In this document: positions 26,201-30,125 of the stretch, one piece after another | Position numbering within the stretch: position 1 is the stretch's first letter | How the letters are laid out: each line of letters starts with the position of its first letter | Assembly (NCBI GenBank): GCA_963514005.1 | Contig: OY740810.1 | Coordinates: 26,598,001 to 26,662,000, forward strand | From: Raja brachyura | Lineage: Eukaryota | Length of the DNA stretch: 64,000 nt | Direction of reading: 5' to 3' | Made by a program: the position numbers

Positions 26201-29200
26201 CTGTATGGAGTTTGTACGTTTTTCCTGTGACCGCATGGGTTTTCTCCAGGTGCTCCAGTTTCCTCCCACACTTCAAAGATGTACAGGTTTGTAGGTTAAT
26301 TGGCTTCGGTAAAGATTGTAAATTGGCCTTTGTCCGTAGGCTAATGTCTACATAGGCGTATGGGGATTGCTGGTCGGCACGGACTCGGTGGGCCGAAGGG
26401 CCTGTTTCCGAGCTGTATCTCAAAGCTAAACTGAGGTAATGGTGGATGGATTCTTGACATGCAAAGGGGGCTCACAGATTACCAGTATTGGAAAGTTCAC
26501 AATCAGAAGACAATTTTATTGAATAGCAGATTAAGCTCGAGAGACCTCCATCTTATATCATTGAATTTTGCAATGGGCAAATTGGCTGCTATGTTTAGGA
26601 CATAATAATAGTCACTCTACTACAAAAGTTTTTCTTTTTCCTTGGCTTACTAATGCATTCTGGGGTCATTAAATACTTTTGGTAAATGCAGATCAAGAGT
26701 CAAGAGTGTTTAATTGTCCAATGTACTGACAACTGAACAATTAAATTGTTATATGCTGTGGCTTGAAATGCAATAATACAAAGATAAATATATATAATAA
26801 TCAATAATTCAATACATTAATAACCATAACATTAGCTAACCAAAATAGTGTGAAACCAAAGTCTGTAGTGCAACCAAAGACACGATCCATGGACAATCGT
26901 AGTTACTGACGTTAGTGTTGTGCAGTGGTCAAAGCCTGATGGCTACAGAAAAGAAGCTGCTCTTGAACTGGTGATCAAGGCTTTTAGATTTCAGTACCAT
27001 CTTCCTGGTGAGATAAGGACTATCTACCATCAGTCTTTGAGGTCATTGGCTGCCTTGTAAGGCAGCCATCTATAGTTTCCTTTGAAGGTGGGGAGATCAC
27101 AATATTTGTGATGATCATGTCTGCATCACAATAAAGAGTCAAGAGTGTTTTTTTTTAAATTGTCATATGTCCCAGATGGAACAGTGAAATTCTTATGGCC
27201 CTATCCAATGGTCATATCCAATTGAAAAATGTCCACGAGAGCCCCAAGTACCGACGAGCGGCCATTACCGTAAATCTCCAAATTACAATCAGGGCAAACT
27301 CAGGAGAGCTCTTGGAATGAACTTGTACCGTGGGACAGGGCCATTACTTGCTGCAGCTTTTGGCTCACTGTGGTGTGACTTCTGAGAGAACGCCGCCACC
27401 TACGGCCGTCATTTTTGGCCAGCTCGCTCAGAGCCCCCATCTGCCTTCCTGGACCACAGGATTTTCCCCATCGATGAAAAATCAGAGAGATATTAATGTT
27501 TTTTAAAAATTCACCATTCTCTCTGCTGCCATTGCTGGAGGGAGGGGGAGGGACTATAAAACCAGGAAGTGGTGTGCCTCACCCAGTCTCTGCAAGATGG
27601 AGGAAGCCAGAGGGTCACGTCTCTTTGAGCTCTGAATAGCACAGAACACATGTCTACTCACCTGTGAGTGCCCTTAATGTGGTTCTATAAATGCTTGCAA
27701 AAAGTGTCTTTATTGGTTCTAAAATGCTTGCAAAAAGTGTCTATTCGTTCTAAAATGCTTGCAAAAAGTGTGTCTATTGGTTCTAAAATGCTTGCAGAAC
27801 GTGTCTATTGGTTCTAAAATGCTTGCAAAAAGTGTCTCTATTGGTACTAAAATGGTTGCAAAAAGTGTCTCTATTGGTTCCAAAATGGTTGCAGAAAGAG
27901 TGTCTCTACTGGTTCTAAAATGCTTGCAGAAAGAGTTTCTCTCTTGAATCTAAAATGCTTGCAGAAAGAGTTTCTCTATTGATTCTAAAATGCTTGCAGA
28001 AAGTGTCTATTGGTTCTAAAATGCTTGCAGAAAGTGTCTATTGGTTCTAAAATGCTTGCAGAAAGTGTCTATTGGTTCTAAAATGCTTGCAGAAGGTGTC
28101 TCTATTGGTTCTAAAATGCTTGCAGAAGGTGTCTTTATTGGTTCTAAAATGCTTTCAGAAAGTGTTTCTATTGGTTCTAAAATGCTTTCAGAAAGAGTTT
28201 CTCTATTGGTTCTAAAATGCTTGCAGAAAGAGTTTCTCTATTGGTTCTAAAATGCTTGCAAAAAGTGTGTCTATTGGTTCTAAAATGCTTTCAGAAAGAG
28301 TTTCTCTATTGGTTCTAAAATGCTTGCAGAAAGAGTTTCTCTATTGGTTCTAAAATGCTTGCAAAAAGTGTGTCTATTGGTTCTAAAATGCTTGCAAAAT
28401 TTTTTCTATTGGTTCTAAAATGCTTGCAAAAAGTGTCTCTATTGGTTCTAAACTGCTTGCAGAAAGTGTGTCTATTGGTTCTAAACTGCTTGCAGAAAGT
28501 GTGTCTATTGGTTCTAAAATGCTTGCAAAAAGTGTGTCTATTGGTTCTAAAATACTTGCAAAAAGTGTCTCTGATGGTTCTAAAATGCTTGCAAAAAGTG
28601 TTTCTATTGGTTCTAAAATGCTTGCAAAAAGTGTTTCTATTGGTTCTAAAATGCTGCCTGGCCAGAGTGACTGAGCTGCCAGCCCAAGAATCCATTTGGC
28701 CCACAATGTTCATACTAGCCCTCTGGAAATCAGTCCCTTTGACCCACAATACACATACTAGCGCTCCAGAAAGCCCCCCCCCCCCCCCCCCCCCCCCCCC
28801 GGCCAGCAATATTGGAATTGGTGGAGAGGTGGAATATTGCATTGCAGGACCAGCCCTCCCATGTGAAGCTGGGACCCAACGGGTCCCACTTAGTCTAGTA
28901 TATAATTTAAAACTCAAATCTTGACAACTTACTGTTTGCACTGCATATTGATTTTAGAAAAAACGCTGGCACTTACGGCTGTGATTTTTTCCCATTGATA
29001 AAAGAGTTAAGTGTTTTAAAAATGTTGAGATTCTCTCTCCTGTCAATCACGCCATGAAGGGCACGCCCCGTCCGGTAGGAGGGGGAGGGACTATAAAACC
29101 CAGAAGAGTGGGCGTGGCTCAGTCTCTGCAATAAGGGTAGGGAGAGGTCACGACTCTCTGTCTGAGCTGTGAATTAACTGAACACACTGAATATCTACTG

Positions 29201-30083
29201 AACTGTGAGTGTGGTGTTTTGTGGTGTGTTGTTTGGTTTTATGGTGGTTTTATGGTGGTTTCACCCTGCTTGAAATGGTATGAAATTGCATTTGAATTTG
29301 GTGGCCTTGCACCCTGCGTGAAATGATATGAAACTGCACTTGAATTTGGAGGCCTTGCACCCTGTTTGAAATGGTATGAAATTGCATTTGAATTTCGTGG
29401 CCTTGCACCCTGCTTGAAATTGTATGAAACTGCACTTGAATTTGGTGGCCTTGCACCCTGCTTGAAGTGGTATGAAACTGCACTTGAATTTGGTGGCCTT
29501 GCACCCTGCTTGAAATGGTATGAAACTGCACTTGAATTTGGTGGCCTTGCACACTGCTTTAAATGGTATGAAACTGCACTTGAATTTGATGGCCTTGCAC
29601 CCTGCTTGAAGTGGCATGAAACTGCACTTGCATTTGTTGGCCTTGCACCCTGCTTGAGGTGGCATGTAACGGCACTTCAATTTGGTGGCGCTGCACCCTG
29701 CTTGAAGTGGTCGGAAACTGTACTTGAATTCGGTGGCCTTGCACCCTGCTTGAAGTGGTAGGAAACAGCACTTGAATTTGGTGGCCTTGCACCCTGTTTG
29801 AAATGGAATTTCAAGGAATAGCTGTATGTGGACTGCCAGCACACCAGGCTTGAGTGACTGAGCTGGCAGCCTAAGAATCCATTCGGCCCACAATGTTCAT
29901 ACTAGCCTTCTGGAAACCAGCCCCTTCAGCCCACAACACCAATACTAACGCTCCAGTAAGCCCCCCCCCCCCCCACCCCCACCCACTGGCCACCAATATC
30001 GGAAGTGGTGGAGATGTGGAATATTGCGTTGGGGGACCAGCCCCCCCATATGAACATGGAACCCAACGGGTCCCACTTAGTCT

Positions 30084-30125
<42 letters not shown>

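What the first reader, a model, noticed from the sequence alone, without database searches (positions are those of the whole stretch)
27357..30085. Tandem Helitron-like chassis carrying two unrelated minisatellites in the same slot
Seen: two head-to-tail units share a 5' region, an identical GGAGGGGGAGGGACTATAAAA block and a leader of about 110 bp ending ctgtgagtg. They also share a 3' module of about 235 bp (gagtgactgagctg...polyC...hairpin-CTTAGTCT[AG]). Between leader and 3' module, unit 1 has about 30 x 33 bp repeats and unit 2 has 11 x 48 bp repeats, with no evident similarity between the two repeat units. Established: a subterminal hairpin about 10 nt before a CTRR end, without TIR or TSD, is the Helitron signature; rolling-circle elements form tandems and some carry central tandem repeats. 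Inference: this is a non-autonomous family with a fixed slot in which different arrays arise or are exchanged, and which may spread minisatellites through the genome. I do not recognise it as a described family in cartilaginous fish.
Basis: partly seen in the sequence, partly recalled or inferred. Interest (0 to 1): 0.78.

Follow-up and report, generated by a model that had tools for sequence, protein, structure and literature searches.

The report
Helitron-like repeat pair with different minisatellites
Two neighbouring, old copies of a non-coding repeat in a skate or ray genome share a promoter-like head and a hairpin-bearing tail but carry unrelated minisatellites, a layout already known from rolling-circle transposons in other animals.

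Summary
Two same-strand units share a 5' region, a promoter-like block with leader, and a 3' module of about 242 nt (86% identical). Between leader and 3' module lie a 33-bp x 29.5 array and a 48-bp x 11.4 array with no detectable similarity.

Unit 1 ends in a G+C-rich 8-bp hairpin 10 nt before CTAG|T. Only 14 such hairpin-CTRR sites occur on both strands of the 64 kb. There are no inverted ends, and homology stops at the 3' end. This fits a Helitron-type 3' terminus.

Several points weaken the reading:
- Unit 2 ends CTTA with a weakened hairpin.
- The 5' TC end cannot be fixed.
- The units are separated by 22-28 nt and are 14-23% diverged, so they are not a fresh rolling-circle concatemer.
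- No third copy and no Rep/helicase gene lies in the window.
- The source genome could not be searched, so "family" and "spreads minisatellites" remain untested.

Helitron-type elements with central tandem repeats, including related flanks with unrelated arrays, are already described in oyster, Drosophila, frog and zebrafish. Verdict: a probable new member of a known kind, of modest interest.

The parts
27193..27346 (.). Small inverted-repeat element (MITE-like) lying exactly at the 5' edge of unit 1. Its arms are 27195-27212 and 27327-27344, and TTA sits on both sides (27193-27195, 27344-27346). It is not part of the chassis but hides its 5' end.
   Evidence: Arms match at 15 of 18 positions. 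Related copies at 25012-25310, 35428-35690 and 42769-42960 all end at the same ...CCATTA / ...CCTTTA edge, with unrelated DNA beyond.
27347..27540 (+). Unit 1, upstream part of the shared 5' region. It is weakly conserved and has a 49-nt insertion/deletion relative to unit 2.
   Evidence: Local alignment 27346-27531 vs 28927-29045 scores 30.1 against 11.8 +/- 2.0 in shuffles (0 of 300).
27541..27561 (+). Unit 1 G-rich block (27541-27552) and TATAAAA (27555-27561).
   Evidence: Identical in both units.
27585..27663 (+). Unit 1 exon-like non-coding leader. It runs from an initiator-like CCAGTCT (A at 27585, 30 nt after the T of TATA) to the splice-donor-like GTGAGT at 27664-27669.
   Evidence: Motif positions. 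A 12-nt block at 27584-27595 is identical in unit 2. The ATG at 27597 opens only a short frame and is absent from unit 2 (sequence). Promoter and splice function are inferred, not shown.
27680..28655 (+). Array 1: 29 monomers plus a 15-nt partial. Monomer lengths are 33 (15), 35 (7), 31 (5), 34 (1) and 32 (1).
   Evidence: There is an exact 103-nt block duplication (28172-28274 = 28275-28377) and there are identical neighbouring monomers (28011/28042, 28443/28476, 28575/28608).
28657..28898 (+). Unit 1 3' module: internal imperfect duplication of about 44 nt, C27 run (28774-28800), hairpin (28870-28888), CTAG (28895-28898).
28899..28919 (+). A+T-rich spacer between the units. Its right edge is uncertain, between 28919 and 28926.
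   Evidence: Homology to unit 1 starts at 28927, or at about 28911-28920 once the MITE-like element is taken out of unit 1 (the gain is only 2.1 score points).
28920..29077 (+). Unit 2, upstream part of the shared 5' region. A candidate 5' end, A|TC, lies at 28919|28920.
   Evidence: and the sequence.
29078..29098 (+). Unit 2 G-rich block (29078-29089) and TATAAAA (29092-29098).
29121..29204 (+). Unit 2 exon-like leader. The initiator-like A at 29121 lies 29 nt after the T of TATA; GTGAGT follows at 29205-29210.
29212..29261 (+). Unit 2 T/G-rich stretch between leader and array, including an 11-nt unit x 2.5 at 29234-29261. It has no counterpart in unit 1.
29262..29806 (+). Array 2: 48-bp unit x 11.4.
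29807..29843 (+). Unit 2 unique stretch between array and 3' module. It has no counterpart in unit 1.
   Evidence: Sequence.
29844..30085 (+). Unit 2 3' module: interrupted C run, weakened hairpin (30057-30075), end CTTA (30082-30085). It is followed by a (TA)n(CA)n microsatellite.

Best explanation
These are two old, diverged copies of one non-coding chassis of about 0.6 kb. They lie 22-28 nt apart on the same strand, in a repeat-rich stretch of a skate or ray genome.

The chassis is most likely a non-autonomous rolling-circle (Helitron-type) element.
- The 3' module carries the parts needed in cis to end transposition: a G+C-rich hairpin, about 10 nt, then CTAG next to a T.
- The 5' module is a Pol II-type core promoter: a G-rich block, TATAAAA and an initiator 29-30 nt downstream. 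An untranslated leader of about 80 nt follows, and the shared sequence ends in a consensus splice donor.
- The 5' module could be the promoter and first exon of the unseen autonomous element. It could also be a captured host gene 5' end, as in HelibatN3.

The stretch between donor and 3' module is not needed in cis and is free to vary. Each copy carries its own minisatellite, which grew in place by slippage or unequal exchange after the copies separated.

The side-by-side position came from a second insertion next to the first or from an old local duplication. It did not come from a recent rolling-circle concatemer.

Shown: the anatomy, the boundaries, the hairpin, the lack of inverted ends, the unrelated arrays and the in-place growth of array 1. 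Inferred: mobility, promoter and splice activity, and the origin of the 5' module.
For: 3' boundary.
- It is sharp. No homology runs past it: 28899-28930 vs 30086-30260 scores 8 against 8.8 +/- 1.3 in shuffles, and 42% of 358 other window segments score as well.
- In unit 1 it coincides with hairpin plus CTAG|T. Only 14 hairpin-CTRR sites occur on the two strands of the 64 kb. My arithmetic puts a chance coincidence within 2 nt of a boundary at about 1 in 1000.
- The last 30 nt agree at 26 of 30.

Other structural points.
- There are no inverted ends: scores 6.5 and 8.0 against about 6.9 +/- 1.0 in shuffles.
- Both 3' flanks start with T in A+T-rich DNA.
- About 190 nt of homology lies upstream of the TATA box. 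A transcript started at the initiator could not have carried it, so the copying was at the DNA level.

5' module.
- TATA, the initiator block and GTGAGT all fall in fully conserved blocks of a region that is otherwise about 77% identical. My arithmetic gives 0.77^20, about 0.005, for 20 motif columns; the choice of columns is post hoc.

Arrays.
- Array 1 has an exact 103-nt block duplication and identical neighbouring monomers.
- The arrays (89-90% internal identity) are more uniform than the flanks are alike.

Precedents.
- Related flanks with unrelated arrays in oyster HINEs (PMC7492417, sections 7-9 read).
- Helitrons made largely of minisatellites in Xenopus and zebrafish (PMC12001565, passages).
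- Capture of a promoter, 5' UTR, first exon and part of the first intron by HelibatN3, and a bias of captures towards gene 5' ends (PMC4224331, passages).
Against: - Only two copies are known, and they are neighbours. Neither BLAST nor profile searches find a third in the other 61 kb. For a family of modest size this absence is expected.
- Unit 2 ends CTTA, not CTRR, and its hairpin carries a mismatch.
- The 5' TC end is not established. Unit 1 abuts a MITE-like element, and the extra homology gained by removing that element is only 2.1 score points.
- No empty site and no Rep/helicase gene was found: 0 of the 116 ORFs scanned, out of 125 ORFs of at least 85 aa. The 9 dropped were low-complexity or array ORFs.
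- Under one alignment the spacer looks like a 3' flank (TATATA) followed by a 5' flank (an A-rich run). A local duplication would leave exactly this pattern.
- Helitrons are reported only at superfamily level in one shark genome paper I saw (PMC8455134, one passage).
Confidence: 0.47

Rival explanations
1. This is not a mobile element. It is an ordinary local tandem duplication of a small Pol II transcription unit, for example a non-coding RNA gene with a TATA promoter, a short first exon and an intron prone to tandem repeats. Each paralogue then amplified a different piece of the intron and lost the rest.
For: - The two copies are neighbours in the same orientation, and nothing else like them lies in the window.
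- The conserved blocks are exactly the promoter, initiator and splice-donor motifs.
- The spacer can be read as a 3' flank followed by a 5' flank.
- Identity is uneven along the unit: about 65-77% at the 5' side and 86% at the 3' side.
Against: - The 3' boundary falls on a hairpin-CTAG|T site that is rare in the window.
- Flank similarity beyond the unit is not significant.
- There is no AATAAA or ATTAAA in or just after either 3' module.
- There is no conserved splice acceptor at the start of the 3' module (sequence).
- Rfam finds nothing at gathering score in the window, and only chance-level matches in 27000-30300.
Confidence: 0.3
2. It is a non-autonomous Helentron (HINE, like DINE-1 or the oyster Cg_HINE elements) rather than a canonical Helitron.
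For: It has a central tandem array between two modules, a palindrome near the 3' end and no target-site duplication, as described for HINEs in PMC7492417 (sections 3 and 7 read). Unit 2 has a short T/G-rich repeat before the array.
Against: - The defining 11-12 nt subterminal inverted repeats are absent: 5' 100 nt against 3' 100 nt score at shuffle level in both units.
- The microsatellite-like stretch is missing in unit 1.
- The flanks are TA-type rather than TT.
Confidence: 0.05
3. It belongs to another class of repeat: a solo LTR, a retroposed Pol II transcript or SINE-like element, or a cut-and-paste transposon.
For: A TATA box followed by a leader resembles the U3-R part of an LTR. The 3' hairpin followed by a simple repeat resembles the tail of some LINE-dependent elements. 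The 3' module has two weak matches to a motif of the window's most abundant SINE-like repeat.
Against: - There are no TG...CA ends and no flanking direct repeats (sequence).
- There are no inverted ends.
- Homology extends about 190 nt upstream of the TATA box, so a transcript started at the initiator cannot be the copied unit.
- There is no A-tail or poly(A) signal.
- With a profile of the SINE-like repeat, the 3' modules score only E = 0.89 (unit 2) or nothing at E <= 1 (unit 1).
Confidence: 0.05
4. It is an assembly artefact: one repeat-bearing locus assembled twice.
For: Long minisatellites and a 27-nt C run are hard to assemble.
Against: The copies differ at 14-23% of positions, have large insertions/deletions and carry unrelated arrays. 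Two haplotypes or a collapsed repeat would not look like this.
Confidence: 0.03

Closest known systems
Canonical non-autonomous Helitrons that carry a captured gene 5' end (HelibatN3 with the NUBPL promoter, 5' UTR, first exon and part of intron 1; PMC4224331, passages read)
   Same: No inverted ends. A hairpin lies about 10 nt before CTAG. The interior holds a promoter, a short first exon, a splice donor and the start of an intron. The family is recognised by its last 30 nt (26 of 30 shared here).
   Different: Copy number, the 5' TC end and a Rep/helicase partner are unknown. Unit 2 ends CTTA. The donor gene, if there was one, is unknown. The interior here is a minisatellite.
Oyster Cg_HINE elements, especially group 2 (Cg_HINE_3 and _6: related flanks, completely unrelated tandem repeats; PMC7492417, sections 7-9 read)
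   Same: Left module, central tandem array, then a right module with a palindrome. The same chassis carries unrelated arrays. The array always has the same orientation relative to the flanks.
   Different: HINEs have 11-12 nt subterminal inverted repeats, a microsatellite in the left module and TT targets. The inverted repeats are absent here. The flanks here are longer (about 320 and 240 nt against 50-100 nt) and include a promoter-like head.
Vertebrate Helitrons made largely of minisatellites (Heli2Xen / Helitron-N2_XT in Xenopus, Helitron-N1_DR in zebrafish; PMC12001565, passages read)
   Same: A vertebrate host and minisatellite arrays that fill most of the non-autonomous element. The related Heli1Xen1 has a TA-rich box in its left end, TC...CTAG ends and a hairpin.
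   Different: Those arrays are of one 166-bp type. Here two unrelated units of 33 and 48 bp sit in the same place. No sequence comparison was possible, because those consensus sequences were not on hand.
Helitron minisatellites of C. elegans (bioRxiv 10.64898/2026.08.08.743475, abstract only)
   Same: Minisatellites carried by Helitrons and sitting in transcribed DNA.
   Different: A distant host. The 10-bp periodicity and insulator role described there were not tested here.

Membership tests
Canonical Helitron | 3' end CTRR | tested here: inconclusive
   Unit 1 ends CTAG (28895-28898). Unit 2 ends CTTA (30082-30085) next to a (TA)n run.
Canonical Helitron | G+C-rich hairpin about 10-12 nt before the 3' end | tested here: met
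   Unit 1: 8-bp stem and 3-nt loop at 28870-28888, -9.3 kcal/mol, z -3.2, matched by 2 of 200 shuffles. In unit 2 the same hairpin carries one mismatch (-3.4 kcal/mol, z -0.5).
Canonical Helitron | 5' end TC, inserted between A and T | tested here: inconclusive
   Unit 2 has A|TC at 28919|28920 as one possible start. Unit 1 abuts a MITE-like element; with that element removed it reads T|TC. The added homology is only 2.1 score points. Both 3' flanks begin with T.
Canonical Helitron | No terminal inverted repeats and no target-site duplication | tested here: met
   Inverted-repeat scores are at shuffle level. No significant direct similarity between flanks.
Canonical Helitron | Members of one family share at least 80% of the last 30 nt (rule quoted in PMC4224331) | tested here: met
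   26 of 30 between the two units.
Canonical Helitron | Dispersed multi-copy family with unrelated flanks and empty sites | not testable with these tools
   No eukaryotic DNA collection was on hand. In the window there are only the two neighbouring copies. Protein-level look-ups of translated modules and arrays found nothing relevant.
Canonical Helitron | Autonomous partner encoding Rep/helicase with the same ends | not testable with these tools
   There is none in the window: 0 of 116 ORFs scanned, out of 125 ORFs of at least 85 aa (9 low-complexity or array ORFs dropped), match Helitron or PIF1 helicase domains.
Helentron / HINE | 11-12 nt subterminal inverted repeats in the left and right modules | tested here: not met
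   best scores 6.5 and 8.0 against 6.8-7.0 +/- 1.0 in shuffles.
Helentron / HINE | Central tandem repeats and a 3' palindrome | tested here: met
Helentron / HINE | Microsatellite at the end of the left module | tested here: inconclusive
   There is a T/G-rich stretch with an 11-nt unit x 2.5 in unit 2 only (29212-29261). Unit 1 has 9 unrelated nt instead.
LTR / retroposed transcript | TG...CA ends with target-site duplication, or a copied unit that starts at the transcription start and ends in an A-tail | tested here: not met
   No such ends or duplications. Homology runs about 190 nt upstream of TATA. No poly(A) signal or tail.
Plain segmental tandem duplication | The junction is made of the 3' flank followed by the 5' flank of the duplicated segment | tested here: inconclusive
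   TATATA follows both units, and an A-rich run precedes both under one alignment. None of this is above chance.

The most novel reading that the evidence does not exclude
A Helitron-type family of skates and rays has a chassis that carries its own working Pol II promoter, first exon and splice donor. Unrelated minisatellites arise repeatedly, or are swapped, directly behind the donor. The element would then scatter ready-to-transcribe minisatellite cassettes (new first exons with repeat-filled introns) through the genome.
Probability: 0.12. Interest if true: 0.55.

Novelty: new member of a known kind. Interest (0 to 1): 0.3.

Why it matters
If genome searches confirm a dispersed family, this would be a documented Helitron-type minisatellite carrier in cartilaginous fish. 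My literature searches found Helitrons there only at superfamily level. It would also be a vertebrate case of one chassis holding unrelated arrays, next to a promoter and splice donor that could create new first exons. That would help explain how minisatellites are seeded at many sites. As it stands it is a two-copy locus in repeat-rich DNA, and its layout has clear precedents.

Tried and rejected
1. Other copies in the window. BLASTN with word size 7 found none beyond the two units. nhmmer profiles of both modules also found none. The many weak 3'-module hits (E 0.03-8) all fall on one short motif of the window's most abundant SINE-like repeat. A profile of that repeat matches 43 places in the window at E <= 1, about 30 of them at E below 0.001. 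It scores the 3' modules only at E = 0.89 (unit 2) or not at all (unit 1). Descent of the module from that repeat is therefore not shown.

2. Other copies through predicted proteins.
- phmmer with the + frame of the 3' module against 1.84 billion representatives gave 3 hits, all on the proline run encoded by the C tract.
- The word-index search with the - frame (residues 12-100) gave 0 of 158 candidates.
- The word-index search with the - frame of array 2 plus its junction gave 0 of 1478 candidates.
- These say little, because such ORFs are rarely predicted.

3. Relatedness of the two array units, and of the array starts, is not significant (p 0.45 and 0.16).

4. Subterminal inverted repeats: none. 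One G-run/C-run pairing in unit 1 (27531-27552 with 28789-28810, p 0.015) is not kept in unit 2. I set it aside as low-complexity.

5. Homology past the 3' end: none.

6. An 11-nt exact word shared by the 3' module and 26446-26456 on the - strand: taken as chance.

7. Known RNA families and tRNA genes. There were 0 Rfam matches at gathering score in the window. Three sub-threshold matches in 27000-30300 lie on the microsatellite or the C run. ARAGORN found 0 genes.

8. Literature.
- Helitron + tandem repeats + shark: 16 papers.
- Helitron + elasmobranch: 9 papers.
- Helitron + cartilaginous: 23 papers.
- A badly designed six-term search returned no listed paper with "Helitron".
- From listings and the passages read, none describes such a family. 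HELIANO (PMC11417382) has no occurrence of shark, skate, cartilaginous, Chondrichthyes or Callorhinchus in its main text. Its supplements, Repbase and Dfam were not seen.

The leader is non-coding and no acceptor could be fixed.

10. Unchecked collections. Copy number in the source genome therefore stayed unchecked.
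Full report
**What is there**

The region holds two units on the + strand. Tandem Repeats Finder reports a 33-bp unit x 29.5 at 27680-28655 (90% matches) and a 48-bp unit x 11.4 at 29262-29806 (89%).

After the arrays the units share a 3' module, 28657-28904 vs 29844-30091, identical at 213 of 248 positions without any gap. 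Before the arrays they share 27541-27670 vs 29078-29211, with 107 matches over about 139 columns. Weaker homology, broken by insertions and deletions, runs back to 27346 and 28927 (score 30.1 against 11.8 +/- 2.0 in shuffles, 0 of 300).

The two array units are unrelated. The cyclic alignment score is 7 against 6.6 +/- 1.6, and 45% of 2000 shuffles do as well. Neither array resembles any other part of either unit.

**Boundaries**

The 3' boundary is sharp. Beyond CTAG (unit 1) and CTTA (unit 2) the flanks share nothing above chance.

The 5' boundary of unit 1 lies exactly at the edge of a different repeat. This is a small element with 18-nt inverted arms (27195-27212 and 27327-27344, 15 of 18 matched) and TTA on both sides. 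Its relatives at three other places in the window end at the same edge. With this element taken out, unit 1 reads ...T|TCTTA..., against ...A|TCTTG... in unit 2. Homology may then extend about 15 nt further, but the gain is only 2.1 score points. The 5' end is therefore not fixed.

Between the units lies an A+T-rich spacer of 22-28 nt.

**The 3' end**

In unit 1 an 8-bp G+C-rich stem with a 3-nt loop (28870-28888) folds at -9.3 kcal/mol (z -3.2). It ends 10 nt before the last base of CTAG, which is followed by T. I scanned the whole window for a perfect stem of at least 7 bp, a 3-8 nt loop and a 4-12 nt gap before CTRR. This gave 5 sites on the + strand and 9 on the - strand. Of the 5 on the + strand, only this one has a G+C-rich stem and CTAG|T. 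By my arithmetic, a chance coincidence with a homology boundary is of the order of 1 in 1000.

Unit 2 keeps the same 30 nt at 26 of 30 positions. It has a G>A change in the stem (-3.4 kcal/mol) and ends CTTA against a (TA)n run.

There are no terminal or subterminal inverted repeats.

Both units have these parts in order:
- a G-rich block;
- TATAAAA;
- an initiator-like CCAGTCT (unit 1) or TCAGTCT (unit 2), whose A lies 30 nt (unit 1) and 29 nt (unit 2) after the T of TATA;
- a leader of 79 or 84 nt with no conserved ATG;
- GTGAGT, after which the homology stops.

These motifs all sit in fully conserved blocks of a region that is otherwise about 77% identical. This is the layout of a Pol II core promoter, a non-coding first exon and a splice donor. 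Activity is inferred, not shown.

About 190 nt of homology lies upstream of the TATA box. The unit was therefore copied as DNA, not through a transcript started at the initiator.

**The arrays**

Array 1 has 29 monomers and a 15-nt partial. Monomer lengths are 33 (15), 35 (7), 31 (5), 34 (1) and 32 (1). It contains an exact 103-nt block duplication and several identical neighbouring monomers. These are the marks of growth in place by slippage or unequal exchange.

In unit 1 the array fills the slot, apart from 9 nt. In unit 2 there are 50 nt and 37 nt of unique sequence on either side of the array.

**Context**

A LINE-type ORF at 37960-38781 has its best named matches in Leucoraja erinacea (87%), Mobula hypostoma (82%) and Hypanus sabinus. 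The window therefore comes from a skate or ray.

The window is packed with repeats. There are LINE 3' ends on both sides of the pair (families D8 and D9), Penelope-like GIY-YIG ORFs and at least 30 copies of a SINE-like repeat. No Rep/helicase domain was found in the 116 ORFs scanned, out of 125 ORFs of at least 85 aa.

**What it most likely is**

I read the pair as two old copies of a non-autonomous Helitron-type element. The 3' module is the termination signal. The 5' module is either the autonomous element's own promoter and first exon or a captured gene 5' end. The interior is free to vary. Each copy's minisatellite expanded in place after the copies separated. The arrays are 89-90% uniform, while the flanks are 14-23% apart.

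The pair is not a fresh rolling-circle concatemer. The units are separated, diverged and differently filled.

The main rival is a plain local duplication of a small transcription unit with a repeat-prone intron. It explains the adjacency and the conserved promoter motifs. It does not explain why the boundary falls on a rare hairpin-CTAG|T site.

With two copies only, I put the Helitron-type reading at about 0.47 and the plain duplication at about 0.3.

**What is known**

- Definition. Helitrons have 5' TC, a 3' hairpin and CTRR. Families are recognised by their last 30 nt. HelibatN3 amplified a promoter, 5' UTR, first exon and part of the first intron, and captures are biased towards gene 5' ends (PMC4224331, passages).
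- Central tandem repeats. In oyster, 11 HINE elements carry central arrays. Two of them (Cg_HINE_3 and _6) have related flanks and completely unrelated arrays (PMC7492417, sections 3, 7, 8 and 9 read).
- Vertebrates. Heli2Xen / Helitron-N2_XT and Helitron-N1_DR consist largely of minisatellites (PMC12001565, passages).
- C. elegans. Helitron minisatellites are the subject of a 2026 preprint (abstract only).
- Cartilaginous fish. I found Helitrons mentioned only at superfamily level (PMC8455134, one passage). My searches listed no description of this family. Dfam and Repbase could not be consulted.

**Verdict**

This is probably a new member of a known kind, and the decisive test (copy number and termini in the source genome) could not be run here. 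Interest 0.3.

Noticed in passing
window 27193-27346; relatives at 25012-25310, 35428-35690, 42769-42960: A small element with 18-nt inverted arms and TTA on both sides sits at the 5' edge of unit 1. The longer relatives are foldback-like, with an inner palindrome. TTA could be a 3-bp target duplication (PIF/Harbinger-like; that family name is recalled, not tested) or part of the inverted end.
   Followed up: partly
window, 43 profile matches at E <= 1 (about 30 below 0.001), e.g. 48949-49118(-), 3013-3181(-), 19850-20016(-), 15025-15190(+), 26307-26496(-): A very abundant SINE-like repeat. One copy abuts a tRNA-like head at about 35690-35723. The 3' module of the chassis has two weak matches to one of its short motifs (E 0.03-8 one way, 0.89 or nothing the other way), so a relationship is not shown.
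   Followed up: partly
window 26813-27099 and 30148-30425 (continuing to about 31363): Both sides of the pair carry 3' ends of the same LINE-like family in the same (minus) orientation (colinear matches D8 and D9). The downstream copy has reverse-transcriptase-type ORFs.
   Followed up: partly
window 30543-31010(-) and 45997-46365(-): LINE-like ORFs match the Pfam family ALKBH8_N (E 1.8e-09 and 2e-06). This probably reflects a retroelement-derived stretch in that Pfam model rather than a repair gene here.
   Followed up: no
window 10896-11633(-) and 19314-19646(-): ORFs with a GIY-YIG nuclease domain, as in Penelope-like retroelements (that assignment is recalled).
   Followed up: no
one search hit list (P0010, P0013, P0124): Proteins labelled as reverse transcriptases of Proteus mirabilis, Klebsiella pneumoniae and an Aeromonas bin are 46-64% identical to the skate/ray LINE ORF and come from contigs of 1.2-1.7 kb. 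They are probably animal DNA carried into bacterial assemblies.
   Followed up: no
window 20090-20440 and 22063-22135, on either side of the N run 21668-21945: Long G/A-rich low-complexity arrays flank the masked or gap stretch, which was left untouched.
   Followed up: no
window 28172-28377: An exact duplication of a 103-nt block of three monomers (35+35+33) inside array 1, a sign of recent unequal exchange.
   Followed up: yes
window 27531-27552 and 28789-28810: In unit 1 the G-rich promoter block and the C run with its following 8 nt are reverse-complementary over 22 nt (p about 0.015). The pairing is not kept in unit 2.
   Followed up: partly
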